Source: an uncultured virus (IMG/VR IMGVR_UViG_3300027787_000001) (Duplodnaviria > Heunggongvirae > Uroviricota > Caudoviricetes). Taken from it: a stretch of DNA of 64,000 bases. Below the pieces are notes generated by a model that saw only the letters and a program-made list of their open reading frames with translations, ran no database searches and had not been told where the DNA came from. Shown here in pieces: positions 13,020 through 62,085 of the stretch. How positions within the stretch are numbered: position 1 is the first letter of the stretch; the number at the start of each line of letters is the position of its first letter. The stretch lies in IMG/VR virus record IMGVR_UViG_3300027787_000001; one strand, 5' to 3'. The translations under genes and the position numbers were made by a program.

Positions 13020-13301
13020 TTACCGGATAGGGAAGAAGGTCAGTTCCCACCACGGACCGTTTATTTCACCATCACTGACGCCCCACACGCGTCTGAGATT
13101 GTACGCGTTCAGTTGGTTATTGAGCGCGATATGAAGTGCTCTCAGGCCCTCTGTGGGGCCGCCATGAAACCGTACCGTGGCCTCGGGAAATGTATGCCCG
13201 AGGCCACCCTGACATGATTCAAATGTCTCTATCCCAGCCGCTCGCAGAATCTCAACTTCGCGCTTGATGCCATCATCAAATTGATGATTCAGCGGGTACA
13301 T
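13020..13301 (-). CDS. Hypothetical passenger protein
   Basis: DDGI...VEILRAAGIETFESCQGG.GH motif; start uncertain. Confidence 0.7.
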   Translation of the reverse strand: MYPLNHQFDDGIKREVEILRAAGIETFESCQGGLGHTFPEATVRFHGGPTEGLRALHIALNNQLNAYNLRRVWGVSDGEINGPWWELTFFPIR

Positions 13302-15394: not shown

Positions 15395-16330
15395 TCAAGA
15401 CAGAAGTTCTCTCAGATCCCACACGCGATTTGCGATCCCCGCCTGCATCGCCGGAGTCACCCGCAAACTGGAATGAATCCGGCAGAAGTTGTACCAGGCG
15501 AAGTGCAGACAGAGCGCTGCCCAAAGATTCTCCCACTTCTTACTAAAGCCGTTCGTGAGCCGCGTCAGCCTACGAATCTGCATCCGCATGGTGAGGTTCT
15601 GGCGTTCGATGTGAGAGGTACAGATGCGCTTCGGATCGGGATTGCCGATGACTGGGACCGCCTCTGTGGAAACGACTTCGGCGGGGCTGTAGCGTGCTTC
15701 GCCAGCAACGGAAGCGCGATAGACCTTGATGAGTTGCGCGAAGTCCACGCGGTCGGAGAGCGTGTTTTCCACGGCGCTAGGGTACGTTCCGAATCCGTCG
15801 GCGCTGAGCTGGTAGGGTTTCGGCGCGGTCGCGTGCCGCAAACCTTCGATGAAAATATCCGTTGTGGCCTGGTCGCGTTTCCCGAGGGCAAAGTTTAGAA
15901 CTAGTTTTGAGTGCCGTTCGATTGCAACGAACGTATAGGCGTCTCCAAAGTTAGGGTCATCACCGGGCTGGAGTGCCTTCTGCTTCTTGAAGCAGAATCC
16001 CCAGATTTCGTCGAGTTGAACATCGCGGACCGGCACATTGACGATCATCCGGCCCAGGATGGCCTCGCAGCGCTGTCCGGCGAGAACCAGCAGGCGCATG
16101 ATCGTATCGCGGTGTAGGCCAGTGATGCGCTCCGCGCTTCTGATGCTGTTCCCTTCGAGTAGGAGTTGAAGCGCCAGTAGGCCCTTATCTGCGGGCGTGT
16201 ACATCGCGTCAAAGGGGCGCTCATGAGCTTCCGTGAAGGTTTTCTTGCACTGAGCGCAGCGGTAGCGCTGAAGGCCGTTGCGGTGCTTACCGTTGCGCTT
16301 ACATTCGATCCGGCAGGAATGGCAGGTCAT
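15395..16330 (-). CDS. IS1-family DDE transposase (single ORF: Zn finger-HTH-DDE)
   Basis: CxxC...GLQRYRCxxC; LEGNSIRSAERITG; VQLDEIW, LSADGF..Y, HIERQNLTMR..IRRLTRLT.GFSKK, YNFCRIHSSLRVTPAMQAG. Confidence 0.93.
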   Translation of the reverse strand: MTCHSCRIECKRNGKHRNGLQRYRCAQCKKTFTEAHERPFDAMYTPADKGLLALQLLLEGNSIRSAERITGLHRDTIMRLLVLAGQRCEAILGRMIVNVPVRDVQLDEIWGFCFKKQKALQPGDDPNFGDAYTFVAIERHSKLVLNFALGKRDQATTDIFIEGLRHATAPKPYQLSADGFGTYPSAVENTLSDRVDFAQLIKVYRASVAGEARYSPAEVVSTEAVPVIGNPDPKRICTSHIERQNLTMRMQIRRLTRLTNGFSKKWENLWAALCLHFAWYNFCRIHSSLRVTPAMQAGIANRVWDLRELLS

Positions 16331-23500: not shown

Positions 23501-24085
23501 CTTGTAGGCCGTCGTGCAGTCCTGAACGCGGATCGCGGTGACCACTGGACCCGAGAGCCACGTTTGTATCTGGCAGTAGGTTCCGAATCCCAGCGCAACG
23601 TCAGCCAGCATAGTCTGAGCATCCGTTGTGACGGTCGTACCGTTGGCGGTGATGAGCAGTTGCGCTCCCCATCCTGAATGGGCGCTGTCGAAGTTCTCCA
23701 TCTGGGTGCGGGTGAGAGCACCGCTCGTAGGGCACGCGCCAGAGGTGGGATTGAAGCTGACCAACGTGGCGCTTAACGCCGTGAGCGTCTTGTAAAAGCT
23801 GACGATCCCCCACTGCACACTACCGTCAGGCCAAGTGTTCTTTACGTCGAACTGGTACGTGGCTATGAGGCTTGCGCCGCTTACGGTGCCATCGCCCTGG
23901 ACCGTTCCCCCAGTAGCAGGCTGTGGGCAGTCCCCCGAAGGGATGTCCCCCTGCTTGAACGTCACGCCGTAGCTGAAGGGATGGTTGGTCTGCCCGGCGT
24001 TATCAACCTCGTAGATAGTCTGCGGGTTGAGGGTATTGGCCCATGCAGGAGCCAGAGCTACAAATAACAGGATCAGCTTTTTCAT
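20549..24085 (-). CDS. Large secreted protein: YetA/PL26-like N-terminal and helical domains plus two putative Ig (He_PIG) repeats
   Basis: Signal peptide; PFSYGVTFKQGDIP...VKNTWPDGSVQW; AYVAYMLTGEQFYLDEL; LPDGTVN..Y, GTAPYTW.ISSGSPPNGLTLSSGGILSGTPT. Confidence 0.75.
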   Translation of the reverse strand: MKKLILLFVALAPAWANTLNPQTIYEVDNAGQTNHPFSYGVTFKQGDIPSGDCPQPATGGTVQGDGTVSGASLIATYQFDVKNTWPDGSVQWGIVSFYKTLTALSATLVSFNPTSGACPTSGALTRTQMENFDSAHSGWGAQLLITANGTTVTTDAQTMLADVALGFGTYCQIQTWLSGPVVTAIRVQDCTTAYKYDFGWAYNNTVPPAMGTACPPGNAGNTCSLHPIWDLYFYPGLSYNTGTNSCNAGDPFCGVKVTITLENDWTQRAQNQLYTVNLKVGTSTPSSVWTRGSGASTGRAVTDAVVTNGSTTITSATAAFVAGDVGMPVEYPAGGTGNWGVIKSVTNGTTAVLDRTPQGSASAIELQIGVHPIFSRWHKTVWTVTAPGQTRMDFNFDYLRKTKAILYYDTNVTLPDPDVSMDPTVVTTYTQWATGDKGDANGTSNRVLQFNNNDEYSPLSWYDLVYLRNMNNDCATADAGATHSKCARAWQMLTGLSGAIDTNLTANNVTGGGGVWASTGSVPIHARESRAAAPFYCVGYDDKNATPATACGSTYATYPENGRVLSRDAHPSATLNTGWESNRVYPVALVGVDNKTATYGAWDNASDGFPSHWQEYAYVAYMLTGEQFYLDELYFEASGLLVNDKEAGTTPSYASNGFFTFFNYTSTHNAFRAYAASMNTLGHAAFMAPNGTPEKLYFTAKVNSNLELLEGFLGKTGSPLTPTSPGPNPGCSSYTVSLATRWDWANCTVRSNCSLNNGTNCANTVAVSPLNYPVTGDCTSSSVIIDTTKSKVTNGEWQVWPGGVVLHHLLEMGFSNAATDATALDTRLVGEVMNANYNPYLIASLVSPYRNSTSCASDLSTGPFATDWGTVLGEFLSTLQAIASFDDAGSGHNASLTSLQWGNFRCADHGYSNSARAHGTFVGAISYAQAGCPAGTCSGASAQTWLLNNVPYYNHTVVNGQSNNCSTSAKQSKFALAVRPAGATCSISGPASPLPDGTVNLAYPLSGSVTVTTSGCTTPSFAITSGAPAGLTLNASSGAFGGTPTQSGTFNVLVAVTDGGSGGNPTQTFAVTIAPGITITPGPTLTAAIYGQPYTLTFSAANGTAPYTWLISSGSPPNGLTLSSGGILSGTPTAAIGLGVFTFDVQATDANGAVGSTTVTLTVTNFGNGAVLRGVIKF

Positions 24086-40831: not shown

Positions 40832-41098
40832 CTATTGTTTCCCGATATCCTGAGCCTTAGGCGCGCTATCCAAAGCCTTCTTGATCGTGTCCTTGAATAC
40901 GGCTGAGAGCATCATCTTCTCAACGACACCCGAGATCCCATGACGCAGACTCATGCCTCCGAGCGCCGCCAGGATCGTGTCGGTGGCGTCCTTGCTGCTC
41001 AGGTGCCCGGTCCACCATCCGCTGAGTGCGTAGAGAATAGTAACCAAGCCAACGATGTAAGTCTTCCTGCCTTTTAGGAAGTTCCAGAATGCGATCAT
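40832..41098 (-). CDS. Putative holin
   Basis: FLKGRKTYIVG, two hydrophobic segments, LR.GI; coupled to endolysin. Confidence 0.75.
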   Translation of the reverse strand: MIAFWNFLKGRKTYIVGLVTILYALSGWWTGHLSSKDATDTILAALGGMSLRHGISGVVEKMMLSAVFKDTIKKALDSAPKAQDIGKQ

Positions 41099-41601
41099 GT
41101 GTTCGATTCTCCTGCTTGCGAATTGATATTCCCCCTCGCAGATTGGATCGCTGCCGTTACGTGCGGACCGCGAGACAACGTCAATATCTTGTCGGCGTAA
41201 TCTGGGTCTGTAGCATAGTGAGCCGATAGCGCCCGAACGTAAGCCGGGAAGTCCCGGTCCTGCTGATATTGTTCGAACGACGATCGGAAGAACGTCCCGG
41301 TCGTTATGAGATTTGCATGACGAGTGAAAGCATCGGCCAGTGTGGGGAAAGCCTCAAAGTTCTGGTCGATTATCTCTTGGGCCCCTGCCACCACTTCTGT
41401 GGTCGCGCAACGTGTGTACGCTTCGTCTCCGACTGCTTTTATGCCGAAGGGGTTATTCCCTGGCTGATGTCTCCCCCATCCCGATTCGTCTATCCATTGC
41501 GGGACAGTCAGTTCGGCCGGGACGCCGGTAGCAGCCTCGGACTGCACTGCCGCTTGTGCGGCTGCTGAGAGGTTATCGAGTTGTTCCTGAGTCAGCGACA
41601 T
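41095..41601 (-). CDS. Endolysin, GH73 glucosaminidase (FlgJ-like)
   Basis: Q..DESGWG, NNPFGIKA, TTE, YATDPDYADKI. Confidence 0.9.
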   Translation of the reverse strand: MSLTQEQLDNLSAAAQAAVQSEAATGVPAELTVPQWIDESGWGRHQPGNNPFGIKAVGDEAYTRCATTEVVAGAQEIIDQNFEAFPTLADAFTRHANLITTGTFFRSSFEQYQQDRDFPAYVRALSAHYATDPDYADKILTLSRGPHVTAAIQSARGNINSQAGESNT

Positions 41602-41882
41602 TAGGCTATCCGCTCCGCGCATACTCTGGCCCCGGTGATCTTGCCCTCTTCGGAAATTTCGATCTCGATGTCGAATCCGTCACGATGGATCTCAAGCTGA
41701 AGGCCGCCGTCGGAACATGGGACTACAGAGGTCTCATCCACAGCCGCTATGGCCTTCGCGCTTATTCGTTTGGCATTCACCAAGTCCCAGCCTTCCTGGA
41801 GTTCCAGCAGAGTACGCTTCCAGTTACTGCCGATGATCGGGGCTGCCATGTCTTCAGGAACTCCGCCGGATTCCCATCTCAC
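41601..41882 (-). CDS. Hypothetical protein (GWD...VPCSDGGLQLE family)
   Basis: Motif pattern similar to 19277-19732; true start may be the internal M. Confidence 0.6.
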   Translation of the reverse strand: MRWESGGVPEDMAAPIIGSNWKRTLLELQEGWDLVNAKRISAKAIAAVDETSVVPCSDGGLQLEIHRDGFDIEIEISEEGKITGARVCAERIA

Positions 41883-45206: not shown

Positions 45207-45878
45207 CTACGGATGCAATGGTTCCCGCTTCGATGTCGGCGGCGCTGGCTGGTTGAGCCGCGCGAGCTCTTGCGGGAACTCCGCAATCTGCGTCTGGCAA
45301 CGTGGGCAGACCACTGCCGCGGCCGGGATGTAGGACTGGCAGGCCGGGCAGGCCTTCCGTTCACCGTGCGCTTCGGGCAGCCACGGCTTGTCCGAGATTT
45401 TCAGCCACTGCGCCATGATGCGGTGAATCGGCTGGATGTACTTGGCCTTATTGTCCCGGTGCCAGGCATCGGCCTCTTCGACCATCTTCATGCCCCAGTT
45501 CCACTGGCGTTTGTAGGCGGTGCTGAGTTCCAGCTTGCTGGGCTTTGACTCTTCGCATACGAAGACCCCTGGACAAGCATCAGGAGTAGCCAGTGGCACG
45601 CGATCGCACCAGCATTCCTTCAGATCATTCGCAATCACGATCGGATAGATCGGATGCGGATAGACACCTACATTCTCCCCGCCGTAGGTTGACTGGGAGC
45701 AATGCGGGATCACGATGAACTTGTACTCCCCTTCGACGTATGGGATCGCCGCGGGAGCCAGCGTGAACAGCCCCACCGGGGTGAAGGGCCGGCGCTCCTG
45801 CAGCGGCAGTGGATAAATTGACGCTACCGTTACCGATGGGCGCCTGAGGTCGTCTTTTGAAAACTTGGATACATCCAT
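45207..45878 (-). CDS. Hypothetical late protein with C-terminal Zn ribbon
   Basis: CPAC...CPRC; AGGAG RBS. Confidence 0.75.
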   Translation of the reverse strand: MDVSKFSKDDLRRPSVTVASIYPLPLQERRPFTPVGLFTLAPAAIPYVEGEYKFIVIPHCSQSTYGGENVGVYPHPIYPIVIANDLKECWCDRVPLATPDACPGVFVCEESKPSKLELSTAYKRQWNWGMKMVEEADAWHRDNKAKYIQPIHRIMAQWLKISDKPWLPEAHGERKACPACQSYIPAAAVVCPRCQTQIAEFPQELARLNQPAPPTSKREPLHP

Positions 45879-45923
45879 TGTTGTGTTCTCCTATTCAGGA
45901 TTGAATTGCGTTAGAATGTGTGT

Positions 45924-46193
45924 ATGAAATTGTCAAGGCGCGGCCTGTTCCGGATGCTGTTTTCACTACCGCTTGTTAAAGTGTTCCGTCAGCATCCACC
46001 AACACTCGGAGGCGTGCGCTTTATGCTCAACAGAAATCAACCAAAAGAGCGGATCGATTTCATTACTCCGAATGACTGGGGCCATGCGCTTGGTTTGGAT
46101 ATTTCGTCCAATCAAGAAAAGCTCCGATATTTCTTCGTCACAAAGAGTGGGGATCTCATCCAACCGAGCCCTAATCCCCGCCAAGTGCGATAG
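45924..46193 (+). CDS. Counter-oriented small protein: twin-Arg-like N-terminus plus capsid-like segment
   Basis: MKLSRRGLF...; segment alignable to major capsid residues 345-395; TAGAAT -10 six bases before ATG. Confidence 0.7.
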   Translation: MKLSRRGLFRMLFSLPLVKVFRQHPPTLGGVRFMLNRNQPKERIDFITPNDWGHALGLDISSNQEKLRYFFVTKSGDLIQPSPNPRQVR

Positions 46194-46203
46194 GATTGTG
46201 AAC

Positions 46204-46428
46204 ATGGCAGCCTCAGAAAGAATCCTGGAACTTCAGCGAGACATCGTCGATGAACTAGTGCGTAAATCGAAAGAGGCAGAGACGCCAAGCGACCGCGCTA
46301 TGCTCCGCTTTTTGGGAACGATCACCAAAATTGACTACAGCGATGTTGGCCATGCTGAATACCTGCTGAAAGATCCCCATACGCTGATCGCGGCTATCAT
46401 TGCTTACCTAGAGGAACGGGACGGCTAG
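46204..46428 (+). CDS. Counter-oriented small protein sharing TKIDYS with the major capsid
   Basis: MAASERILE...; TAGGAT -10 seven bases before ATG. Confidence 0.6.
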   Translation: MAASERILELQRDIVDELVRKSKEAETPSDRAMLRFLGTITKIDYSDVGHAEYLLKDPHTLIAAIIAYLEERDG

Positions 46429-47024
46429 ATTCCGCCGAAGCTGACTGAACCCTTCCCCACTCGCAGCGTCGGGGCATCCAGCATGTCGTCCATTTCTTCG
46501 CCGATGCGGTTGGTCTTCTCTTCCAGCACCTGCTGATTGATTGCCTCGCCCTCGCGTTTGTGGTCCTCGAACGTCATTCCCAGATTGGTTTTGAGGACGT
46601 GGATCAGGACGTAATTGGCATCCTCGGACGGAACCTTGCCGCGTTTGATTCGCATGTTCTCCAGGGGTTGCCAGTCTCCGTATGGTGCCCAAGGGACTCC
46701 CCCGCCGTATAGGTTAAAGTGCGACCGCTCGGATATCGGGGGTTTCCAGATTGCCGCGATCCAGCATGGACCGTACATCCTCGCCCATGATTCCCTCTTG
46801 TAGATCGGCACCGTAGCGAGAATGTTCCCCACCGCAACAATGTCCCGCTTTGGCGTGAAGACACCCATCTCGTTGATCTGGCCGTCCCGCACCCAATATT
46901 CCATCTCCGTGCTGTAGACCCATTTGCATTTTGGCTGCTCGCCCTGGTTGCCGAACGAGACAAAGCCAAAAGTTTCACCGAGGCGTTGATTCAATTTGTT
47001 GATGTGGCGCTGTGTGTCGGTCAT
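46425..47024 (-). CDS. Hypothetical late protein
   Basis: Long ORF in operon, Trp-rich. Confidence 0.75.
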   Translation of the reverse strand: MTDTQRHINKLNQRLGETFGFVSFGNQGEQPKCKWVYSTEMEYWVRDGQINEMGVFTPKRDIVAVGNILATVPIYKRESWARMYGPCWIAAIWKPPISERSHFNLYGGGVPWAPYGDWQPLENMRIKRGKVPSEDANYVLIHVLKTNLGMTFEDHKREGEAINQQVLEEKTNRIGEEMDDMLDAPTLRVGKGSVSFGGI

Positions 47025-47030: not shown

Positions 47031-48806
47031 CTACCTTTTGCTGTTCCCGCCCATCACGGCCGTGCCGCCGAGGACGGAGGACGCACCAGCCGCAATGCCG
47101 GTACTAAACTCAAACGCCCCACGCTCCCAAGTACCGTCAAACGTCCGGCTGACTCCGGCTAAATCCACGTTGTACGGTGCCGACAATGTAATGCCGTCGT
47201 TCAAGTGGGCGTCCACCGTTTCACTGGTCAGGTGAAAGTCAGTAGCGGATACGAATGGATTAACCCCAACTCCTCCAGGAGCGGTGCCGACCTGAAATTC
47301 ATGCGCGGCAACCGTTGTCGGCCCTTCCCCGGTATTAAGCCACGTGTTGTAATCATGCGAGATATCGGCGTTGCTAAATATGTCCCCGGCTGTACAATTC
47401 CACCAGAGATTATTTTGAACTGTGTTTCCCGTAGAAGCAGCCAAGGTGATTCTGACACCGGCAACATCCGCTCCGGGGTGCCCAGGAGCTAAATGGATTC
47501 CAGAAAAAGTGTTCCCATAGAATACCGAATTCGTCAAGACACCTGTAGGTCCGTTATCACCGATGCCTTTTGATACCCCACAAGTAGACGACGTGTCACC
47601 TAAATGTGTACAAACAGAATCCCAGTCGCTCGTATAGTAAAAGATATTGTTATATACCAGCCAACTGTCACACAGCCCGTTCAAACACGTGATAAAGCCG
47701 GTACCCTGGATATTTTTGAACGTGGAAGAAACAACCGTCAAATTACTCAGGCCCGTTTTTGTTGAATCGTTTGCCGGTGCCTGCGTCTGAATGGCGTTAG
47801 AGTGCTGAGCCGCATCGCTAAAATTATTTTCTATCCAATCATTTGACACGGTGAACCCGGTGACATTGCCGGCAGATTGCACCAAAACCTGGATGTCATG
47901 AACAAAAGAATGTTTAAGACTGATGGTCGTAACTGTTGGTGTGGTCGTCGACGGACTTCCAAAATAAAACGCAGTAGAGCCTGACTGGCTGGCGGCATAC
48001 GCCAAACCGGAGGCCGTGGTGGGGGATGAAGTAAGAATTAAGTGCGTGGCATCCGTGACTGAGGAAATGGTGCGGACCACAGCGTTAATCGTTATTTGCT
48101 TTCCACTCCAAAAACCGGATGTATCGAACTGGCTACGTGGGCTACCGGAAGCGTCTGTCGCCCAAGTGACTGTAGTAGTTCCATCTGTATTGAGAGTGCC
48201 TGTGCCGAGCACCGCTGAACCAGCCGCCTCTACACCATCCAGTTCTATATGCGCGAGAGTGATATGAGATAGCGACGCTTCGCTGCACGCATGGCTGTCA
48301 ATGCGAATGAACCCAAACATTCGTCCGCTGCTGACGAAATGGAACCCGTAGGTCCCCGTTGTATCGGAAGTCCCAACTTGTCCGTCCACGTCGTAGTAGT
48401 TGCCGCACATATCCCAAAAGGGATTCTTGAGTCCGTCTGTTGCAACAAAAGAATTGGACCACAAGATGTTAGGCGTCACGTCCACGCCAAAACTGGCATT
48501 CCATCCGGTTGCCGTTCCGTGATCCGCCCCAGTCGCCGCCTTGATCGTGATGTGACTCCCGGCTGTCCCGCTGGTGCTGAAGGTGTGAGTAAGTTCCCCG
48601 GCACACGGCGTGGTCGTGTCCGCAAGGTTGCCGCCGGAGTTCCCGATGTAGACTACATCTCCTGCCGCGAGCGGTGGGATTTTACAGTTGGCGTTTGACC
48701 AATCTGTCCCAGCGTGTGTCCCCGCGCCACCGGCGAGAACAAAGAACGTCGATGCAGAGCAATCCGACACCAGCAGAAACACGTAGATGGGGAATCGCAG
48801 TATCAT
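47031..48806 (-). CDS. Secreted beta-helix-like protein (choice-of-anchor Q-like C-terminus)
   Basis: Signal peptide; GTDWSNA; YNNIF/GNTF/NNLW repeats; DFHL...DLAGVSR...WERGAFEF. Confidence 0.7.
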   Translation of the reverse strand: MILRFPIYVFLLVSDCSASTFFVLAGGAGTHAGTDWSNANCKIPPLAAGDVVYIGNSGGNLADTTTPCAGELTHTFSTSGTAGSHITIKAATGADHGTATGWNASFGVDVTPNILWSNSFVATDGLKNPFWDMCGNYYDVDGQVGTSDTTGTYGFHFVSSGRMFGFIRIDSHACSEASLSHITLAHIELDGVEAAGSAVLGTGTLNTDGTTTVTWATDASGSPRSQFDTSGFWSGKQITINAVVRTISSVTDATHLILTSSPTTASGLAYAASQSGSTAFYFGSPSTTTPTVTTISLKHSFVHDIQVLVQSAGNVTGFTVSNDWIENNFSDAAQHSNAIQTQAPANDSTKTGLSNLTVVSSTFKNIQGTGFITCLNGLCDSWLVYNNIFYYTSDWDSVCTHLGDTSSTCGVSKGIGDNGPTGVLTNSVFYGNTFSGIHLAPGHPGADVAGVRITLAASTGNTVQNNLWWNCTAGDIFSNADISHDYNTWLNTGEGPTTVAAHEFQVGTAPGGVGVNPFVSATDFHLTSETVDAHLNDGITLSAPYNVDLAGVSRTFDGTWERGAFEFSTGIAAGASSVLGGTAVMGGNSKR

Positions 48807-50212
48807 TGCACGAACGCTGTCTGTCCGCCGACACTAGCCTGATGCTGTGCGGCCCCGACATCACGAAAATTGGTTGTCAATCCCGCAGGGAAAGTCAAAG
48901 GGTCTCCGACCGATTGAAGAAGCGCTCCGGCTCCGACCGTGTTGTTGAGAAGAAAGTTGGACGCTGCTGCGTTGACGAACACCGATCCGGCAGTGACTGG
49001 AATAGCTCCGACATTGGCCATTGGGTTGGCGTTGGTGGCGACCCCAACGGAATTATTGTTGAAGTAGGAAACATTTCTAAGGTTTTTCCCTTGACCAGTA
49101 AAATTGAATCCGGCAGAAGCAACGCTGACGCCGTTGTTTTCTGCATGAGAGTCAACGACTAGCCCTGGCGCGTTGGTGGTACTGGCAGCAAATCCATGCT
49201 GGCCGTTGGACACAGCAACGCAGTGGTAACAGACTTGATTTGAATAACCGATAGTGGTTGCGCCTGTGTTCCCGTAGGATAAACAATCGACACAATACAG
49301 AGTCGTTATCGGGGTCGCTGTATTTGCCCATGCTTCACAGGCAATGCAGATGGCAGTTCCTCCGAAGACCGCGGCAGAATTAGTCGTCGCGCCGCACTTG
49401 TAGAAGATCGGGGTACCGCTGGTAGCGGTATTGAAGTTTTTGAATAGGCAGTTGGTAAAAATGTTGGCCCCCGATGTCAACTTAGCCGCGGTCTGTGTAT
49501 TTCCGTCGAAGATGATGTTCTTATATATAGTCGCGCTGGTCGTAGCGATTGTTACGGTGGTCGTGTTGATTTGGATCGTCGGTCTGTTGTCCGAGTTCCC
49601 CAGTGTGCGGCTGGAAGTATACCCTTGCATAAATACCACGGTCGCCCCGGAGAACGTGCCGCCCGCCACATTGCCTGTCGCCGAAGTGATCGAGTAGACG
49701 GATGCCCCGTCAGCACCAACATTCAAAAGAAAGATCACGTTTCCGGAAATTGCCAATGAGTTCGCCTGACCGGGGCTTAGAAGTGCCCCACCGATGTTCA
49801 TGGTCGCTCCGGTCCCAGTAGTCAAGCCGGTTGACCGATCCACCACAATCGTGGTCGAGTTGGTGAAAGTAATAACTTGATACCAAGCTGAGGCTATTGA
49901 TCCTGTACCGCCAGACACGTTGATGATGTTGCCGACGATGGCAGCGCTGAAATTAGCCGTTGCCGAGGTGATGGTGGTCGTTCCATTTGTGACCGCATCT
50001 GTGGTGGAGATGTTGATCGTCGCGCTCTGACAGGACGTGCAAGCCACGGCATTCTTATTGGCGAACAGGGACATATCCGTGCCCGATGCGCCGGTGACGA
50101 ATCCGCCGCCATTGGTGTCGCTGCCGGTGAGCCTGACTTCAAAAACCGATTGCGCTGATATGGCGGAAAACGCCCGAGATGCAAAGAGTAAAACGACGAG
50201 TAGCTTTTTCAT
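48803..50212 (-). CDS. Secreted beta-helix-like protein
   Basis: Signal peptide MKKLLVVLLFASRAFS/A; GSDTNGGGF; Cys-rich repeats; RDVGAAQH. Confidence 0.7.
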   Translation of the reverse strand: MKKLLVVLLFASRAFSAISAQSVFEVRLTGSDTNGGGFVTGASGTDMSLFANKNAVACTSCQSATINISTTDAVTNGTTTITSATANFSAAIVGNIINVSGGTGSIASAWYQVITFTNSTTIVVDRSTGLTTGTGATMNIGGALLSPGQANSLAISGNVIFLLNVGADGASVYSITSATGNVAGGTFSGATVVFMQGYTSSRTLGNSDNRPTIQINTTTVTIATTSATIYKNIIFDGNTQTAAKLTSGANIFTNCLFKNFNTATSGTPIFYKCGATTNSAAVFGGTAICIACEAWANTATPITTLYCVDCLSYGNTGATTIGYSNQVCYHCVAVSNGQHGFAASTTNAPGLVVDSHAENNGVSVASAGFNFTGQGKNLRNVSYFNNNSVGVATNANPMANVGAIPVTAGSVFVNAAASNFLLNNTVGAGALLQSVGDPLTFPAGLTTNFRDVGAAQHQASVGGQTAFVQ

Positions 50213-51246
50213 TATTGTGTCCCCGAAAGCGTGACCTTCCCAGACAGTGTGTGGATGTTTGTAGGGGAAGTAAGCACTATGCAAACCACTATTGGCGCGG
50301 CTGCCGTGCCTGAGATTGTTTTCGACCACCCGGTTAGAGTTGTGTCTTTGAATCCGAGAACCGCCGAGAAGGTTGGTGTATCCGAGGCTGTGATTGATGT
50401 GGCACCGCCAGGGCCGGATGTCAGATAGTTGGCAAAGGTCTCGGTCTGAAGATCCAGCGTAGCGCCGCCCGAAACATCCCCGAGTAGGCTAATGCCCGTG
50501 ATGGTCGCGGTGTAGGTTATGGTATTGCAGGCTGTCTGTCCTGTGAGGACGGCTGTGCTGGAGAATCCTATCGCAATTTCATGTGTGACCGCCGTCACAC
50601 CGGAGCCGCTGCATCCGCTTGTCGTCGCTCCGCCGTTTGCGTCGGTACAGAGAGACGCGCCAGTTCCCGAGACCGTGCCGGAACTCAGGAGCTTCGTGTC
50701 GGTGCCTTGGATGGCCTTGATGGAGAGCGTGCCCGGTGTACCAGCGCCGTCGCTCACAATTGCGCCTGCTGCGTCGGCGGCGGGGACTTTCCACTGGTAG
50801 GCGGTAGGAATCGACGTTGGGGCAAAGATTGTTAGGCCGTTGGCACCAAAGATAGGTAGCGTGCCCTGCCCAAAGAAGGAAGTACCGGCGATACCAGATC
50901 CTACTTGGGTGCTCAACGTGCCAGTGAGCGATAAGTTGCCGTTGGAATCAAGCAGGCACAAAGGGCATATCGTCTGGATCGCGGTCCCGCCCGCGCTGGT
51001 CACGATGGCCCCGTTGGTCATGGTGCCGGTGGTGGTGACGGAGCCGTTCCCAGATCCCATATCTGCCCAGGTGTCCGTCGCGGTGCAAAGTCGTTCCTTC
51101 GCTGTTGAGGTGTCGAAATATTTTTCACCGGCCGCGCAATGCGTTGGAGCCGTGGCGAGTTCGGGCCACGGGGGATTAGGTCCAACTATGACCTGAGCGA
51201 ACATCGCAGGACAAACCAGGGAAAAAAGTAGCGCCTGGTATCTCAT
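50212..51246 (-). CDS. Fibre-like mosaic protein with signal peptide
   Basis: MRYQALLFSLVCPAMFA/Q; C.AGEKYFDT...LCTATDTW; LCTDANG. Confidence 0.7.
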   Translation of the reverse strand: MRYQALLFSLVCPAMFAQVIVGPNPPWPELATAPTHCAAGEKYFDTSTAKERLCTATDTWADMGSGNGSVTTTGTMTNGAIVTSAGGTAIQTICPLCLLDSNGNLSLTGTLSTQVGSGIAGTSFFGQGTLPIFGANGLTIFAPTSIPTAYQWKVPAADAAGAIVSDGAGTPGTLSIKAIQGTDTKLLSSGTVSGTGASLCTDANGGATTSGCSGSGVTAVTHEIAIGFSSTAVLTGQTACNTITYTATITGISLLGDVSGGATLDLQTETFANYLTSGPGGATSITASDTPTFSAVLGFKDTTLTGWSKTISGTAAAPIVVCIVLTSPTNIHTLSGKVTLSGTQ

Positions 51247-51249
51247 TGT

Positions 51250-51603
51250 CTACTCCCCTCTTTCTACGAGAACCCAAACCGAATACGCACCCGTCCCCGC
51301 ATAGGTACTAGAAATGGTAATGGTGCTGATTGATCGGATCAGGGCAGCGCTCGTGGCGGCATTATTAGAGGTCAGATTGAATCCCGCAGGGATCGTAAGA
51401 CTTTTAGCCCCGCTATCTGTTGTGAACCCCACTGAAAATGAGACAGACCCAGATCCAGCGGTAGAAGTTTCTGCATACACGCTTACTCTGTAGAGTCCAC
51501 TGGGAAGTGAGGAGCCGACTATCGCTCCAGAAAGACTGGCGGACTGGGAAAGAAACGAAGTCACTTTCCCGCCGTTTTTTAGGCGCCCCTGGTAGTTGAG
51601 CAT
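51250..51603 (-). CDS. Small beta-rich virion-like protein
   Basis: GLYRVSVY jelly-roll-like motif; GGAG RBS. Confidence 0.65.
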   Translation of the reverse strand: MLNYQGRLKNGGKVTSFLSQSASLSGAIVGSSLPSGLYRVSVYAETSTAGSGSVSFSVGFTTDSGAKSLTIPAGFNLTSNNAATSAALIRSISTITISSTYAGTGAYSVWVLVERGE

Positions 51604-51688
51604 AGCGGCTCCATTCTGATTTGAAGCCGGTCTCTTCCGGCCGTCACGCCGCGCAAGCGTCTGGGGGCGTTCACAGAATTGCTAGGTT

Positions 51689-52105
51689 CTAGCTGACCAG
51701 CAGGAAGATTTTCATGGTCCCGGTTTCGGCACCATCGGCTACTTCCGTGTTGGTCAGGTTCGAGTAGAGCCGACACGTGAAGACGTAGGCTGTACTCGTC
51801 CTCGTCCAGACATTTGGCTGGCCGATCTTGATGTTGGTCCCGGCTGCCGTGACGACAGCGAATAGGACATCGACAGCTCGGATAGATGCGATGCCTTTCT
51901 GGAAAGTCCCTCCCTGCTGGCCTGAAGGCATGTCAGGGAAATCGCCATGTTCGAGCGATTGCAACGGAGCGGTGAAATCGAATGTGATACCGCCAGTTGC
52001 GGTAGCGTAAGTGAATCCGATCGTCGCCGTCAGCGAAACGATACGCGGATTGGTCAGGTGCGACAGACCAATTGGTGTGGGGTTAACTACAAAGCTGTTT
52101 GCCAT
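51689..52105 (-). CDS. Putative capsid cement/decoration protein
   Basis: Immediately after major capsid; YATATGGI, TEVADG motifs. Confidence 0.65.
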   Translation of the reverse strand: MANSFVVNPTPIGLSHLTNPRIVSLTATIGFTYATATGGITFDFTAPLQSLEHGDFPDMPSGQQGGTFQKGIASIRAVDVLFAVVTAAGTNIKIGQPNVWTRTSTAYVFTCRLYSNLTNTEVADGAETGTMKIFLLVS

Positions 52106-52132: not shown

Positions 52133-53428
52133 CTAGTAACCAGAGGGCAAACTGCATCCATAGATCGTCCCTTGGCTGCCTGGGTCAAAGGACACAAAGT
52201 TCTCGTCCTGCGTGAGAGAAAACCAGAGTCCCGCCTGCGGTGCTCCGCTCGGACCAGGGATGAAGAAGAAGCGCTGGCCACCGATCTCGAAATAGCCGAG
52301 TTGGTTCAGCCGCGCCTTGCCCCAGAGAGAAGGAACGATCCAATCGAGGCGCGAACGATCCTGCCGGTAATCCAGCAGGTGATCGATGCCGGCGAATGGG
52401 AACGAGGACTTCGAAGCGTCCTTGGTGGCATTGGGCAGGAAATCGCGTGCCTCCATGTCCTTCGAGTTCTGGAGGTTGACGGTTAAGGCGACCTGCTCGG
52501 AGAAAATCTGCGCGCGCTGCGAGATATTGGCGAGGCCCTTCAGCCCAGTCGGTTCCTGGCCGCGCCGTTGGCCGATTGCATCGAGTAGCAGCAGGCCGTG
52601 GTTCCAGGTCAAGGCTCCATTGGCGTTGATCGAGTTGACGGCCAATTCCGGCTCGACTGCTCGATCCAGGCCCTGATAGGTGCCCGAGGAGGCGTAAGAG
52701 TTGTGGTAGTACAGTCCCTGTTTCCAGGTTGGTGCGGCGCCGGTGGTATTGACACCATCGAAGCAGATCACATCTGTTGCTCCGGCCGAAGCGACCAGGC
52801 CACTCAAAGTGATCTTTTTGTTGGAGTAGTCGATTTTGGTCACGAACATTCCCGAGGCGCGCAGTGTGTTGAAGTCGCTCGAATACACGACGACATACAT
52901 GCCGCGCCGCATACGCTGAATGCCAAAATTTGCATCGAGCGTATAAGTGGTAGCGCCCGAAACGGTAGCGGTGGCCGTCGCAGTTCCTGCTACTGCCGTG
53001 CCATCTGTGTGGAAGCTGAAATCGTTGTAGACGGCGAATTCCCTCATCGCCCTCTTCATCGTTTCCTTGAAAACCGATCCGGCCGGTGAGACTTTGGCAT
53101 CGGCCGTTGCATCCATCTTGAGCTTCGACAACTCAAAGTTGAGGCGCAGGGGGAAGAACGTCGAGATGAGCCGATCCCCAGTCATTGAGGAGCCGCGGCC
53201 CATGTCGCCGAAGTTGTTGTCGTAAGTTCCGAACCGACCGCCGGCCGATAGCCAAATGGGAGCCCGGAAATCGCGCTCACCTACTCGCGTTACTTCCGTC
53301 TTCTCGATTAGGTTCGACGCGACGACAAATGATTCCTGCCATTCTTGCAGCTTTGGCCGGATGACCTCCGACTGCATCCAAAGTGAGTTTGTGTTGGTAT
53401 AACCGTGAGTGGTACTGGCGTCTGCCAT
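52133..53428 (-). CDS. Major capsid protein
   Basis: 431 aa after scaffold; DMGRGS, DGTAV.GT, GL.Y....SGTYQGLDR; AAGGA RBS. Confidence 0.8.
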   Translation of the reverse strand: MADASTTHGYTNTNSLWMQSEVIRPKLQEWQESFVVASNLIEKTEVTRVGERDFRAPIWLSAGGRFGTYDNNFGDMGRGSSMTGDRLISTFFPLRLNFELSKLKMDATADAKVSPAGSVFKETMKRAMREFAVYNDFSFHTDGTAVAGTATATATVSGATTYTLDANFGIQRMRRGMYVVVYSSDFNTLRASGMFVTKIDYSNKKITLSGLVASAGATDVICFDGVNTTGAAPTWKQGLYYHNSYASSGTYQGLDRAVEPELAVNSINANGALTWNHGLLLLDAIGQRRGQEPTGLKGLANISQRAQIFSEQVALTVNLQNSKDMEARDFLPNATKDASKSSFPFAGIDHLLDYRQDRSRLDWIVPSLWGKARLNQLGYFEIGGQRFFFIPGPSGAPQAGLWFSLTQDENFVSFDPGSQGTIYGCSLPSGY

Positions 53429-60067: not shown

Positions 60068-60226
60068 TTAGTCCTCCCTTTCCGTAGCCGCCAGCACAAA
60101 TGCCGCGAGAAGAAATACTCCGACCAAGAGGAGGCTGGTGTGCCAAAGGGCGTCGGCTGTGGGCATCAATCTCCTCAATATCCTCCCCGCCCTCCACTCG
60201 AACATCATATCCGGTGGGAACATTAG
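60068..60226 (-). CDS. Small membrane protein
   Basis: Hydrophobic C-terminal helix; start approximate. Confidence 0.4.
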   Translation of the reverse strand, partial: LMFPPDMMFEWRAGRILRRLMPTADALWHTSLLLVGVFLLAAFVLAATERED

Positions 60227-62085
60227 GCTGGGTGATCCCATCTGCGCCGGTTCCTCATCGAACCTCGCGCGAATCTTCCCCACGGTAGCGGCCGGTTCTT
60301 CTCCTGATCCAGCAGCGTCTTCTGAACCACCTGGTGCCGTACCATTGGATCGCTCAACACCTCGGCATTGACCACGCCGGCGGCCGCGATGCGCTCCGCG
60401 ATCTGGATATCCAGCGGCTTCTGATTCTCGCGGGACCGGTCACCCATTACGAGATAGCGGGCGCTCTGCAAAGGGTCGTCACCAACGAACTTTCTTATGT
60501 CATGTTTGCCATCGTCATCATGAGTCGCAATTGCCAGAAGCTCTTTCAGCTTTTGGCAGCAATCCCATATCTGGATCTTTGGCAGGACTTCCCGCGGTTT
60601 CTTGTGACGAGCCAAGTATTGCTGGTAAGCGTCCCGGCCTTCACTGAGAAACAGTTCGCGGGCGAAGTCCATGTCTGGCTGCACCTCCGGCTCGATCGGT
60701 GTGAAGCGCATCAACCCATGAAGATACTGCCAGCCGTCCGCGCGCCGGTTATTGGCGCGATAGATGATGATCCGCATGCGGCCATCGAGCGCGTTGTACC
60801 GCTGCTCCATTGACTGCCAGGCCTTTTCCGGTGAACCAAGACGTTGCTCATCGTCCGTCAGATCTACCAGGAACGCGGAGCCAGCTCCCAGCACAATCTC
60901 GATACCGCGGCGAATCTGCTCGGCAAAAGTATACTTCGCGTCAGTTTTAGAGAAACACGACGGGTCGAGATGCAGCGGTATCGTGTGATCCGGCAGCCCT
61001 TCCAGGTCGCTCATGGACATCTTGGCGATCTCAGACCCCAAGACCTCCGAACCCATGCCCTTGATGACAAACTCCCGGTAGATGTGCAGCCTTCCATCGG
61101 CCTTGTTCTGGCAACCCCAATGCACCGACGAGAAGTGATCGTATCCCCAGTCGACACCCATCGTCCGCGGCCACCAGGGAAGCAGATCGGCGCCAAGAAT
61201 GACGTGCCGCGCCTCGGGTGGTTCGCCCGCGAGCGGGCCGTGCGGTCGATACCACTTGAAGTACGGACCCAGCATCGAGTCCCAGTCACCCTCAAGCCAA
61301 GCCCTTCGCGTCGCTTCCGGCTGATCCTTCAGCTGATTGAGATAGTCCTCATTGTGCATCAGATAAGGATTGTCTTTTAGAAACGCCGGGATAAATATTC
61401 TGGTGCGCTTCGTCGCTGCGTCCAGCATCGTTGTCATCGACGGAATCAGGTTCCCGTCCTTGTCCAATACTTTGACGTAGCGTGCGTTAACCCAGGCCGA
61501 CCCCGGACCGTCAGGATTAGTCGTGGCGAAGAATTGGGCCTTAATCTCTGGCATCGTGGAGCGGCAGCATCCGAGAAGTCTCTTGAACAGGTCGAGGTCT
61601 GGAACCTGCGTCAATTCTTCTACCAGAACCTGTTGATATTGTTGCGACTTGTACAACTCGTAGGACTTTGAATCCTTGAGGTGCCCGCCGCGGATGATAT
61701 GGCCGTCCGGCCAGCGGATCTGAAGCGGACGTTCGGCAAACTTGGCGCCAGTCGGCTCGTAGAGCACTCGAGCGCGCGAGATCCACTCGGCCAGATCCTT
61801 TTCATTAGCCCGGATCACTAGACCGCGTAGGTCACGCAGGATACGCGGTTCCTGCGGTTCGATCTCGATCATCCCTGTTTCGGGATTGAATCGTTGAATC
61901 GTCCGATGTTTTACCAGCCAGGCGATGCCGCAGTCTGACTTCGCCCCACCGCGAGCACCACCGTAAAGAACCTCATTCTCCGTGCGTGCCAGAGCTATCG
62001 CCTGCTTCGGCAGAGGTTTCCAGATAATGTTAGGTTGGATTTGGATGCGCCCCGTATCGCAGCCCTTTGCCCTTGGGCGCCTCAC
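60223..62085 (-). CDS. terL: Terminase large subunit
   Basis: VLYGGARGGAKS (Walker A), VLVEELTQ (Walker B), ATTNPDGPG, FIPA.L.DNPYL, GVDWGY, DDPLQSARY. Confidence 0.95.
   Translation of the reverse strand: MRRPRAKGCDTGRIQIQPNIIWKPLPKQAIALARTENEVLYGGARGGAKSDCGIAWLVKHRTIQRFNPETGMIEIEPQEPRILRDLRGLVIRANEKDLAEWISRARVLYEPTGAKFAERPLQIRWPDGHIIRGGHLKDSKSYELYKSQQYQQVLVEELTQVPDLDLFKRLLGCCRSTMPEIKAQFFATTNPDGPGSAWVNARYVKVLDKDGNLIPSMTTMLDAATKRTRIFIPAFLKDNPYLMHNEDYLNQLKDQPEATRRAWLEGDWDSMLGPYFKWYRPHGPLAGEPPEARHVILGADLLPWWPRTMGVDWGYDHFSSVHWGCQNKADGRLHIYREFVIKGMGSEVLGSEIAKMSMSDLEGLPDHTIPLHLDPSCFSKTDAKYTFAEQIRRGIEIVLGAGSAFLVDLTDDEQRLGSPEKAWQSMEQRYNALDGRMRIIIYRANNRRADGWQYLHGLMRFTPIEPEVQPDMDFARELFLSEGRDAYQQYLARHKKPREVLPKIQIWDCCQKLKELLAIATHDDDGKHDIRKFVGDDPLQSARYLVMGDRSRENQKPLDIQIAERIAAAGVVNAEVLSDPMVRHQVVQKTLLDQEKNRPLPWGRFARGSMRNRRRWDHPA

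What the first reader, a model, noticed from the sequence alone, without database searches (positions are those of the whole stretch)
45924..46193. Counter-oriented moron encoding a fragment-mimic of the phage's own major capsid protein behind a twin-arginine-like leader
Seen: residues LGGVRFMLNRNQPKERIDFITPNDWGHA of this 89-aa protein align without gaps to major capsid residues 345-372, FAGIDHLLDYRQDRSRLDWIVPSLWGKA (10/28 identical, several conservative), and the similarity continues (RYFFVTKSG vs RFFFIPGPSG). The N-terminus MKLSRRGLF.. resembles a Tat/membrane-binding helix. The gene is antisense to the late operon and has its own TAGAAT -10, as lysogen-expressed morons do. Inference: a membrane-tethered or exported capsid decoy that poisons head assembly or blocks related superinfecting phages, analogous to prophage tail-assembly blockers but aimed at the capsid. 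The divergence from the resident capsid suggests either self-avoidance or capture from a related phage.
Basis: partly seen in the sequence, partly recalled or inferred. Interest (0 to 1): 0.88.

Follow-up and report, generated by a model that had tools for sequence, protein, structure and literature searches.

The report
Capsid-gene piece inside small counter-oriented ORF
A small reverse-oriented gene inserted in the head-gene block of an uncultured soil phage really does carry a short stretch related to the phage's capsid protein family, but it looks more like a by-product of gene shuffling than a proven capsid decoy.

Summary
About 33 residues (aa 27-59) are related to the capsid family of the 431-aa protein at 52133-53428. 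A profile built from 40 relatives, without the resident capsid, picks this ORF as the only outlier among all 1,843 six-frame pieces of the window (18.8 bits, E 5e-5; next best 3.9 bits). The best of 100,268 reversed or shuffled pieces scored 12.3 bits.

The claimed continuation (RYFFVTKSG) is no better than shuffles. The 431-aa protein models as an HK97-fold capsid.

The ORF and a 74-aa neighbour fill a 546-nt, low-GC, counter-oriented insertion between two genes that are adjacent in 18 of 18 related loci. Only identical copies of the ORF were found, so selection cannot be measured.

Lysogeny is not shown, and neither is export or decoy action. TAGAAT sits where a leaderless transcript would start at the ATG. 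A related phage (L019) has a small ORF that combines an SRRGFL leader with a piece of its own capsid.

Best reading (about 0.5): a chimeric accessory ORF whose capsid-derived block came in by illegitimate recombination. A functional protein built from a capsid piece remains possible (about 0.3 over the three functional rivals).

The parts
45924..46193 (+). Small ORF, 89 aa including the stop codon. The stop-to-stop frame opens at 45915.
   Evidence: It is the best of six frames by codon usage (0.033 bits/codon, others -0.23 to -0.63). This exact 89-aa protein was called on 1 contig and is held letter for letter in the ESM Atlas.
46023..46193 (+). Alternative 56-aa form starting at Met34, with GGAGG at 46008-46012, 10 nt upstream
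   Evidence: Called on 7 contigs (P0002). Codon score is 0.11 bits/codon, against -0.098 for the first 33 codons. Shine-Dalgarno check.
46002..46100 (+). Capsid-family block (aa 27-59), matching capsid residues 344-376
   Evidence: hhalign E 2.8e-6. HMM without the resident capsid: 18.8 bits, E 5e-5 in the whole-window scan. Null maximum 12.3 bits. The block-only HMM gives 26.6 bits, above genuine distant-clade capsids at 22.3-25.9 bits.
45933..45950 (+). SRRGLF twin-arginine-like motif (aa 4-9)
   Evidence: [ST]RRG[FL][FL] in the first 14 aa occurs in 3 of 10,415 candidate ORFs of the window plus 68 loci. No Pfam or NCBIfam signal model matched, but those models also missed the clearer L019 leader.
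45912..45917 (+). TAGAAT, a -10-like hexamer ending 6 nt before the ATG
   Evidence: A hexamer matching TATAAT at 5 of 6 or better at this distance precedes 17 of 1841 ATG triplets. TANNNT at this distance precedes 8 of 77 genes. No -35 element; the promoter scan found 0.
46204..46428 (+). Second ORF of the insertion, 74 aa. It starts 10 nt after the small ORF's stop and overlaps the stop of the 199-aa gene.
   Evidence: Called on 8 contigs. It has a distant homologue in related phage L061 at 1415-1615: phmmer E 8e-4 among 23,224 pieces, tblastn E 1.7e-4, alignment.
45879..46424 (.). Lineage-specific 546-nt insertion between the 223-aa and 199-aa genes
   Evidence: Homologues of the two flanking genes are directly adjacent (estimated gaps -37 to +43 nt) in 18 of 18 related loci where both were detected, out of 68 loci. 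GC is 0.475-0.51, against 0.57-0.645 in the flanks and 0.558 window-wide.
52133..53428 (-). Major capsid protein, 431 aa, HK97 fold
   Evidence: AlphaFold2 with 41 sequences: pLDDT 84.4, pTM 0.81. Foldseek against PDB: 217 matches at E <= 0.001, led by the SU10, cyanophage A-1(L) and Pa223 capsids. No Pfam or PHROG hit.
46425..47024 (-). Conserved 199-aa gene flanking the insertion. In relatives it follows the capsid gene.
   Evidence: No family or PDB match.
45207..45878 (-). Conserved 223-aa gene with a C-terminal zinc-ribbon-like motif, flanking the insertion

Best explanation
The ORF is a chimeric accessory ORF inside a lineage-specific, counter-oriented two-ORF insertion in the head-gene block of an uncultured soil phage. 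Its central 33 or so residues descend from a capsid gene of the same HK97-fold family as the resident capsid, but from a divergent lineage. This is shown as homology by profile statistics.

I infer that the piece arrived by illegitimate recombination together with, or next to, the real accessory gene at 46204-46428. I also infer that the capsid-derived block is a by-product of that event and not a device aimed at capsids. On this reading the ORF is either untranslated leader sequence of the 74-aa gene, or a translated small protein (56 or 89 aa) whose capsid block has no capsid-related role.
For: - Homology of the block is supported.
- All 41 family members place the ORF on the same capsid site. 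It is closest to P0039, P0032 and P0041 (20.7 bits) and not to the resident capsid (11.7 bits).
- Codon identity to the resident gene is 12, 16 and 12 of 28 at positions 1, 2 and 3, so this is not a recent self-duplication.
- The block scores like a genuine distant capsid (26.6 bits against 22.3-25.9), so no long independent history of the ORF is needed to explain the divergence.
- Similarity stops outside the block, as expected at a recombination junction.
- The flanking genes are adjacent in 18 of 18 relatives, and the insert has lower GC.
- Short pieces of the phage's own capsid also turn up in small ORFs of three other relatives, each from a different part of the capsid: residues 1-52 and 54-74 in L016, residues 2-48 in L019, and the last 18 residues in L022. 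Scattered scars would look like this; a single conserved functional motif would not.
- No orthologue of the ORF exists among 5.8 billion clustered proteins or 1.84 billion representatives.
- The Atlas model of the ORF has pLDDT 0.34.
- The first 33 codons score like non-coding sequence.
Against: - The frame is open for 89-92 codons around a 33-codon block.
- It is the best of six frames, and gene callers call it on 8 contigs.
- It sits 10 nt upstream of a real gene, as in an operon.
- Of the 13 block positions I judged most conserved in the family from the alignments, I count 9 kept by eye. No script scored this.
- TAGAAT is placed for a leaderless start at the ATG.
- Two of the five capsid-piece ORFs found (the window's and L019's) begin with SRRG[FL][FL], a motif seen in only 3 of 10,415 candidate ORFs. 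Pure chance fusion explains this poorly.
Confidence: 0.5

Rival explanations
1. The ORF is a functional small envelope protein of a recurrent class in this phage group. A twin-arginine-type leader carries a short mature part built from a piece of the phage's own capsid protein. It would be exported or membrane-anchored and would act at the envelope, for example in superinfection exclusion, and not on head assembly.
For: - SRRGLF lies at aa 4-9.
- L019 1042-1344 encodes a 100-aa ORF with a clearer leader (SRRGFL, then an uncharged Ala-rich stretch ending in Cys). This is followed by a copy of its own capsid residues 2-48 (33.5 bits, E 4e-7) with one motif duplicated.
- The motif is rare: 11 of 10,415 candidates match the relaxed form and 3 match the strict form.
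- Further RR-leader small ORFs occur in L061 (665-958) and L032. The L061 one lies about 450 nt upstream of the homologue of the 74-aa gene.
- The window ORF and the L019 ORF share the same nearest Atlas clusters, including Tat-signal clusters. Scores are 0.78-0.87, which counts as a lead only.
- A leaderless-type -10 hexamer is present.
Against: - The window's hydrophobic stretch is short and interrupted by R10 and K19.
- There is no Ala-x-Ala site; the first Ala is residue 55.
- The leader codons score as non-coding.
- Seven of 8 gene calls omit the leader.
- The two capsid pieces come from opposite ends of the capsid, so no common mature domain exists.
- The motif was defined after seeing the data.
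Confidence: 0.2
2. One reading: a cytoplasmic or membrane-tethered capsid decoy that co-assembles with or caps capsid subunits and poisons head assembly of related superinfecting phages.
For: The block covers four consecutive beta-strands of the capsid model (E342-345, E348-352, E360-364, E369-379) and keeps most of the positions I judged conserved by eye in the alignments. Full-length capsid homologues that redirect assembly are known (Ccm, PMC8569155, start of abstract seen in the search listing).
Against: - Thirty-three residues taken out of a larger sheet are unlikely to fold alone; the Atlas model has pLDDT 0.34.
- A Tat-type leader would take the block out of the cytoplasm.
- The phage would expose its own capsid, which shares the block, to the poison.
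- No lysogeny genes were found.
- No orthologues exist.
Confidence: 0.08
3. The ORF acts as bait for host immunity. A short capsid-derived peptide would occupy or desensitise a host sensor that recognises this conserved capsid segment.
For: Only indirect. The block is the best-conserved stretch of the C-terminal third of the family (consensus). Many bacterial sensors recognise capsid proteins (recalled; the preprint 10.64898/2026.01.04.697583 on sensing of core phage proteins was seen as a listing and in 'find' passages only, and those passages were irrelevant).
Against: No sensor is known for this unknown host, no homologues exist, there is no expression evidence, and the leader argues against cytoplasmic action.
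Confidence: 0.05
4. The similarity is chance: an ORF that happens to resemble a Trp/Arg/Asp-rich capsid segment.
For: - The pairwise score is matched by four other, mostly unrelated, pairs in the window.
- Own-capsid BLASTP gives E 0.018, within the null range.
- The same ORF segment also gave an inflated hit to an unrelated 1166-aa repeat protein.
- The finding was picked out of a very large scan of many windows.
Against: - The profile built without the resident capsid gives E 5e-5 window-wide, 15 bits clear of the noise.
- No null piece out of 100,268 exceeds 12.3 bits.
- All 41 family members align to the same site, while the control ORF scatters.
- Twenty of the 25 best phmmer hits among 23,224 pieces are capsid genes at the homologous position.
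Confidence: 0.07

Closest known systems
Gene remnants at mosaic junctions of phage genomes (illegitimate or relaxed recombination; PMC3945230 and PMC8136500, starts of abstracts seen in the search listing)
   Same: A piece of a structural gene lies away from its gene, at the edge of an inserted accessory segment, and is more similar to other lineages' copies than to the resident copy.
   Different: Here the piece is in frame inside a called ORF with an RR-type N-terminus and tight spacing to a real gene. Divergence is at the level of distant clades, so decay cannot be judged.
Ccm of SaPIbov5, a capsid-protein homologue that redirects helper capsid assembly (PMC8569155, start of abstract seen in the search listing)
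   Same: A second, divergent relative of the capsid protein encoded beside the functional one. It is the nearest precedent for a 'capsid look-alike that acts on capsids'.
   Different: Ccm is a full-length HK97-fold protein of a satellite and co-assembles. This ORF holds about 33 residues of the fold, is encoded by the phage itself, and no effect is shown.
Tab, the prophage tail assembly blocker (PMC10884400, start of abstract seen in the search listing), and Tai systems (PMC11364771, start of abstract seen in the search listing)
   Same: Phage-encoded or island-encoded proteins that stop virion assembly of invaders.
   Different: Their target is the tail. I saw no statement that they mimic their target. 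No PADLOC model matches the ORF.
Twin-arginine (Tat) signal peptides (consensus S/T-R-R-x-F-L-K, recalled)
   Same: S-R-R-G-L-F lies near the N-terminus, followed by hydrophobic residues.
   Different: The hydrophobic region is interrupted by Arg10 and Lys19, there is no Ala-x-Ala site, and no signal model matched. The models also failed on the clearer L019 leader, so that negative says little.
Gol peptide of the T4 capsid protein, recognised by the Lit protease (recalled, not looked up)
   Same: It shows that a short internal capsid segment can by itself be a ligand of another protein.
   Different: Gol is part of the capsid gene, not a separate ORF. There is no sequence relation and nothing was tested.

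Membership tests
HK97-fold major capsid family of this phage group (alignment A1, 41 sequences) | Significant profile match | tested here: met
   18.8 bits, E 5e-5 in the window-wide scan with the resident excluded. hhalign E 2.8e-6. Block HMM 26.6 bits, against 22.3-25.9 for genuine distant capsids.
HK97-fold major capsid family of this phage group (alignment A1, 41 sequences) | Full-length fold (N-arm, E-loop, P and A domains, about 415-450 aa) | tested here: not met
   The ORF is 89 aa. Only profile positions 325-359 of 418 match, and the tail is not significant. It is a fragment, not a capsid protein.
Tat signal peptide | Twin-arginine motif S/T-R-R-x-F-L-K near the N-terminus (recalled consensus) | tested here: inconclusive
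   SRRGLF at aa 4-9 has the last two residues swapped relative to the consensus. The motif is rare in the data set (3 of 10,415).
Tat signal peptide | Uncharged hydrophobic region of about 12 or more residues and a small-x-small cleavage site | tested here: not met
   Read from the sequence: R10 and K19 interrupt the stretch, the longest uncharged run is 8 residues (MLFSLPLV), and the first Ala is residue 55.
Tat signal peptide | Match to curated signal models (Pfam TAT_signal, NCBIfam) | tested here: inconclusive
   0 families at E <= 10. The clearer L019 leader also gave 0, so the test lacks power. Atlas feature neighbours include Tat-signal clusters at 0.78-0.83, a lead only.
Moron (autonomous accessory unit in a late operon) | Insertion between genes that are adjacent in relatives, with deviating composition | tested here: met
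   18 of 18 relatives have the flanking genes adjacent. GC is 0.475-0.51 against 0.558.
Moron (autonomous accessory unit in a late operon) | Own promoter and terminator | tested here: inconclusive
   A -10-like TAGAAT is placed for a leaderless start, but there is no -35, the scan found 0 promoters, and no terminator lies at the 3' end. The 74-aa ORF overlaps the convergent gene's stop.
Moron (autonomous accessory unit in a late operon) | Expression from the prophage in a lysogen | not testable with these tools
   No integrase or repressor appeared among the 73 proteins scanned. No relative was found in genome contigs. No RNA run is listed.
Capsid-redirecting capsid homologues (Ccm type) | Full-length capsid homologue able to co-assemble | tested here: not met
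   The ORF holds only a 33-residue block.
Invertible alternative-C-terminus cassette (Mu G / P1 C type, recalled) | Inverted repeats at the gene's 3' part and at the inverted fragment, plus an invertase | tested here: not met
   No inverted repeat links 45900-46200 with 52200-52420. No recombinase of that kind appeared in the scans.

The most novel reading that the evidence does not exclude
This group of uncultured soil phages encodes a recurrent class of small proteins with a twin-arginine-type leader whose short mature part is assembled from a piece of the phage's own major capsid protein. In the window it is a four-strand block from the C-terminal third. In L019 it is the N-terminal helix plus a duplicated invariant motif. 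Such proteins would display capsid epitopes at the cell envelope or titrate a partner of the capsid, a form of self-mimicry not described for phages.
Probability: 0.18. Interest if true: 0.8.

Novelty: new variant of a known kind. Interest (0 to 1): 0.52.

Why it matters
If the block is only a recombination scar, the case is a well-documented example of how capsid-gene pieces get scattered into accessory ORFs. It is also a warning that self-similarity inside a phage genome need not mean mimicry. If the RR-leader plus capsid-piece architecture is functional, it would be a new way for phages to reuse their own structural sequence. It is directly testable with export reporters, assembly assays and plating tests in a laboratory host once a cultivable relative or a surrogate system is available.

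Tried and rejected
- Complex prediction of capsid (alignment A1) with the 89-aa ORF gave 'no answer' (score 0.00, controls not run). This counts neither for nor against binding.
- The look-up of sequencing runs listed no RNA holder. There were three soil DNA runs, two of which may be the source of this DNA. Their contigs show no difference inside 45879-46428, so no polymorphism is available to judge selection.
- Searches for homologues of the ORF found only identical copies. They also found a 1166-aa repeat protein whose E 5e-6 comes from five summed weak repeats; I judged this spurious. INPHARED phages gave only E 2-3 hits to microvirus capsid genes, which I take as chance.
- The resident capsid has no match in INPHARED, none in genome contigs, and none in metagenome contigs with the single protein. 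The alignment query gave 34 loci, all at 57% identity or less (45% or less over full-length matches).
- The invertible-cassette idea was rejected because there are no inverted repeats.
- No flanking direct or inverted repeats mark the insertion as a mobile element.
- The antisense 79-aa ORF (45966-46205, -) was considered. Its codon score is 0.018, it has an SD-like GAGG, and it has no family hit. I rejected it because the capsid-like frame and the homologue-backed 74-aa gene are both on the + strand.
- Weak own-capsid BLAST hits in L021, L033-L036, L038 and L039 (E 0.06-0.4) look like off-frame sequence and score 5.4 bits or less with the HMM; dropped. The hit in L071 is antisense to its own capsid gene on a 2.4-kb contig; dropped.
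- PADLOC gave no hit for either ORF.
- The search of earlier findings was not open.
Full report
**What is at the coordinates.** On the + strand, 45924-46193 is an ATG-started ORF of 89 aa. It begins 45 nt from the start codon of a 223-aa gene on the - strand (45207-45878). It ends 10 nt before a second + strand ORF of 74 aa (46204-46428), whose stop overlaps the stop of a 199-aa gene on the - strand (46425-47024). All larger genes from 20549 to 62085 run on the - strand. They include a large terminase (60223-62085; PHROG E 2.6e-25) and an endolysin (41095-41622). A 79-aa antisense ORF (45966-46205, -) overlaps the small ORF.

The Smith-Waterman score is 61. Shuffles of the ORF give mean 28.3, sd 4.2, max 55 (0 of 2000 reach 61), and shuffles of the capsid give 0 of 1000.

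That alone is not enough. In an all-against-all comparison of 77 window proteins the pair is only third, and four other pairs reach 27.7 bits. A plain BLASTP of the capsid against the window's six-frame pieces gives E 0.018, which a reversed-capsid control also reaches.

- *Profile test.* I collected 41 family members, aligned them and built a profile from the 40 that are not the resident capsid. I searched every stop-to-stop piece of 20 aa or more in all six frames of the window (1,843 pieces, 108,021 aa). Besides the capsid gene (605 bits), one piece stands out: +45915_46190, 18.8 bits, E 5e-5, profile positions 325-359. The next best is 3.9 bits.
- *Null.* The same profile against 100,268 reversed or shuffled pieces (61 times the window's six-frame content) gave at best 12.3 bits, then 7.2.
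- *Profile-profile.* hhalign gives probability 88%, E 2.8e-6 over 33 columns, aa 27-59 against capsid 344-376.
- *Consistency of mapping.* phmmer places the ORF on the same capsid site in 41 of 41 family members, 17 of them at E <= 0.001 for a database of 41. The neighbouring 74-aa ORF, used as a control, scores 1.4 bits or less at scattered sites. Among 23,224 six-frame pieces of 68 related loci, 20 of the ORF's 25 best phmmer hits are capsid genes at the homologous position.

I therefore take the block as homologous.

**Limits of the resemblance.** The claimed continuation fails. Residues 56-89 against the 41 family tails score no better than shuffles (296 of 1000 shuffles reach the mean, 651 of 1000 the maximum). 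Residues 1-26 face a variable, low-confidence loop of the capsid (residues 325-339, pLDDT below 50), so nothing can be said there. The demonstrable capsid-derived part is thus about 100 nt (46002-46100).

**Where did the piece come from?**
- The ORF is nearer to the capsids P0039, P0032 and P0041 (20.7 bits, alignments aa 24-76) than to the resident capsid (11.7 bits).
- Codon identity with the resident gene over the 28 codons is 12, 16 and 12 at positions 1, 2 and 3. No nucleotide repeat links the two places. It is not a recent self-duplication.
- A 41-column profile of the block alone scores the ORF at 26.6 bits. That is below the core family (40-84 bits) but just above genuine capsids of the distant clades L033-L044 (22.3-25.9 bits).

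So the block is as capsid-like as real distant capsids are. A fairly recent capture from an unsampled, divergent lineage explains it without assuming a long history as an independent gene. Equally, its divergence cannot be used as evidence of decay.

**Is the 431-aa protein the capsid?** It has no Pfam, PHROG or NCBIfam hit. AlphaFold2 with the 41-sequence alignment gives pLDDT 84.4 and pTM 0.81. Foldseek finds 217 PDB chains at E <= 0.001, led by the capsids of phage SU10 (E 6.4e-10), cyanophage A-1(L) and Pa223, followed by encapsulins. It is an HK97-fold major capsid protein.

The block corresponds to four consecutive strands (342-345, 348-352, 360-364, 369-379) after the second long helix (302-317) and the disordered loop. 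From my recollection of HK97 gp5 topology, this is where the chain returns to the P-domain sheet. I did not verify that by residue-level superposition.

**Context.** Homologues of the 199-aa and 223-aa genes follow the capsid gene in relatives. Both were detected in 18 of 68 related loci, and in 18 of those 18 they are directly adjacent on one strand (estimated gaps -37 to +43 nt). Some loci are the same contig held in two collections, leaving about 15 distinct.

In the window the two genes are 546 nt apart, and the gap holds the two + strand ORFs. GC there is 0.475-0.51, against 0.57-0.645 beside it. This is a lineage-specific, counter-oriented insertion.

The 74-aa ORF is a real gene family. 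Related phage L061 (capsid 42% identical) has a 66-aa homologue at 1415-1615, upstream of its terminase gene. The small ORF itself has no relative other than identical copies:
- none in 5.8 billion clustered proteins;
- none in 1.84 billion representatives read by phmmer;
- none in IMG/VR, apart from three contigs with an identical region;
- none in INPHARED.

**Expression signals.**
- *Codon usage.* The ORF's frame is the best of six (0.033 bits per codon). This is below the 5th percentile of 110 true-gene windows (0.067) and above the 95th percentile of 550 off-frame windows (0.006). The last 56 codons score 0.11, the first 33 score -0.098, and the 74-aa ORF scores 0.127.
- *Start codon.* Met34 has GGAGG 10 nt upstream, and gene callers chose that 56-aa form on 7 contigs against 1 for the 89-aa form. 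Only 17 of 45 confident genes have an SD-like motif, so its absence at Met1 means little.
- *Promoter and terminator.* The sigma-70 scan finds no promoter and no relevant terminator. TAGAAT (45912-45917) ends 6 nt before the ATG, where a transcript would start at or next to the A. Such a hexamer (5 of 6 or better to TATAAT) stands at that distance before 17 of 1841 ATG triplets. TANNNT stands there before 8 of 77 genes, against 61 of 1841 triplets. A leaderless 89-aa form is therefore plausible.

**The leader.** SRRGLF resembles the Tat consensus (recalled), but the hydrophobic stretch is broken by R10 and K19 and there is no Ala before residue 55. Pfam and NCBIfam give nothing at E <= 10. They also give nothing for the much clearer leader of L019, so this negative has no weight. 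The ESM Atlas lists Tat-signal clusters among the ORF's feature neighbours at 0.78-0.83, below the tool's 0.9 bar. Its own model of the ORF has pLDDT 0.34.

**An unexpected comparative result.** I scanned the related loci with the capsid profile, and with each locus's own capsid, to look for further fragments. Among 25,067 real pieces, four non-capsid pieces score 8.5 bits or more (window 18.8; L016 15.9 and 8.5; L019 10.5). The 100,268 null pieces hold a single one.
- *L019 1042-1344* (100 aa, held letter for letter in the Atlas) starts with an SRRGFL leader, followed by an uncharged Ala-rich stretch ending in Cys. It then repeats its own capsid's residues 2-48 (33.5 bits, E 4e-7), with the family's invariant ERDYRIP motif present twice. 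It lies just upstream of the homologue of the window's 790-aa gene.
- *L016* has two adjacent small ORFs with its own capsid's residues 54-74 (13 of 21 identical, E 4e-7) and 1-52 (E 3e-5).
- *L022* has a short ORF ending in 18 residues that are 78% identical to its capsid's C-terminal end (E 8.6e-6 within the locus).
- *Control.* With reversed capsids as queries, the best hits outside the capsid genes' own antisense strands are E 0.045 or weaker.

Of 10,415 Met-started candidate ORFs of 50 aa or more in the window and 68 loci, 11 have [ST]RRx[FLIVM][FLIVM] in the first 14 residues. Only 3 have SRRG[FL][FL]: the window's ORF, L019's ORF and one off-frame-looking ORF in L067. The motif was defined after seeing the data and the loci include duplicates, so this is a lead and not a test. 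Still, two of five capsid-piece ORFs carrying so rare a start is hard to dismiss. Other RR-leader small ORFs without capsid pieces occur in L061 (665-958, with an Ala-Ser-Ala site) and in L032.

**Lifestyle.** Among the 73 window proteins scanned I found no integrase or repressor. I did find an IS-type transposase, a Gam-like protein, a RusA-like resolvase, a replication initiator, methyltransferases and a ParB-like protein. No relative was found in one genome for each of 185,579 species, using the patterns that scan chose. 'Prophage' and 'lysogen-expressed' are therefore unsupported, though not excluded.

**Weighing the explanations.** Three things are shown: a capsid-family block, an insertion, and a real neighbouring gene. 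The rest is inferred.

I put about 0.5 on a chimeric accessory ORF whose capsid block is a by-product of illegitimate recombination.
- *For this reading:* the similarity ends sharply; the pieces seen in four phages come from four different parts of the capsid; no orthologue exists; the predicted structure is poor.
- *Against this reading:* the frame stays open well beyond the block; the spacing to the next gene is operon-like; the -10 hexamer is well placed; the RR-leader coincidence is hard to explain.

The rivals are:
- about 0.2 on a functional envelope protein of an RR-leader class;
- about 0.05 on a bait for a host capsid sensor;
- about 0.07 on chance.

**Comparison with what is known.** The nearest described things are:
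- gene remnants at mosaic junctions (PMC3945230, PMC8136500; starts of abstracts in the search listing);
- the satellite protein Ccm, a full-length capsid homologue that redirects assembly (PMC8569155; start of abstract in the search listing);
- assembly-blocking defences such as Tab and Tai (PMC10884400, PMC11364771; starts of abstracts in the search listing).

The ORF fails membership of the capsid family as a protein, since it is only a fragment. It fails two of three Tat-signal features. My searches for a phage-encoded capsid-fragment decoy found no such report (one search checked one preprint, where 'decoy' referred to mass-spectrometry databases). That covers only the held open-access library.

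Noticed in passing
L019:1042-1344 (+): A 100-aa ORF just upstream of the homologue of the window's 790-aa gene. It has a clear twin-arginine-type leader followed by a copy of its own capsid's residues 2-48, with the invariant ERDYRIP motif duplicated by a 39-nt tandem repeat.
   Followed up: partly
L016:1003-1296 and L016:1567-1959 (+): Two neighbouring small ORFs upstream of the terminase gene. They carry pieces of that phage's own capsid: residues 54-74 (13/21 identical) and residues 1-52. The first is a paralogue of the ORF at 1290-1580, which lacks the capsid-like insert.
   Followed up: partly
L022:573-770 (+): A short ORF whose last 18 residues are 78% identical to the C-terminal end of L022's capsid and which ends at the same residue. 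No nucleotide-level repeat with the capsid gene was found.
   Followed up: partly
L061:665-958 (+) and L032 around 1553 (-): Further small ORFs with twin-arginine-type leaders in related phages. The L061 one has an Ala-Ser-Ala site and a Cys-rich mature part, and lies about 450 nt upstream of the homologue of the window's 74-aa gene.
   Followed up: no
window 47031-52105 (-): Five genes (138, 117, 344, about 469-508 and 591 aa) lie between the capsid gene and the 199-aa gene, a gap of 5,108 nt. In relatives that gap is 29-1,548 nt. Three of them begin with Sec-signal-like N-termini, read by eye and not tested. That is odd inside a head-gene block.
   Followed up: no
window 13020-13301 (-), 13884, 14940, 18918, 46204, 55672, 63458: TANNNT hexamers end 5-8 nt before the start codon in 8 of 77 genes, against 61 of 1841 ATG triplets. 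A perfect TATAAT stands before the gene ending at 13301. This hints at leaderless transcripts in this phage-host pair.
   Followed up: partly
window 15395-16330 (-): An IS-type DDE transposase gene lies inside the phage's early region (Pfam DDE_Tnp_IS1 E 2.6e-6; PHROG transposase E 1.8e-8).
   Followed up: no
window 20549-24085 (-) and 48803-50329 (-): The 1178-aa and 508-aa proteins share a 59-residue segment at 52.5% identity (41.6 bits, E 4e-6). It is the strongest intra-window protein similarity.
   Followed up: no
P0044 (1166 aa, from the representative library): A repeat protein with about eight copies of a roughly 49-residue unit reached E 5e-6 against the small ORF through five summed weak matches. 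It shows how tandem repeats inflate phmmer scores.
   Followed up: yes
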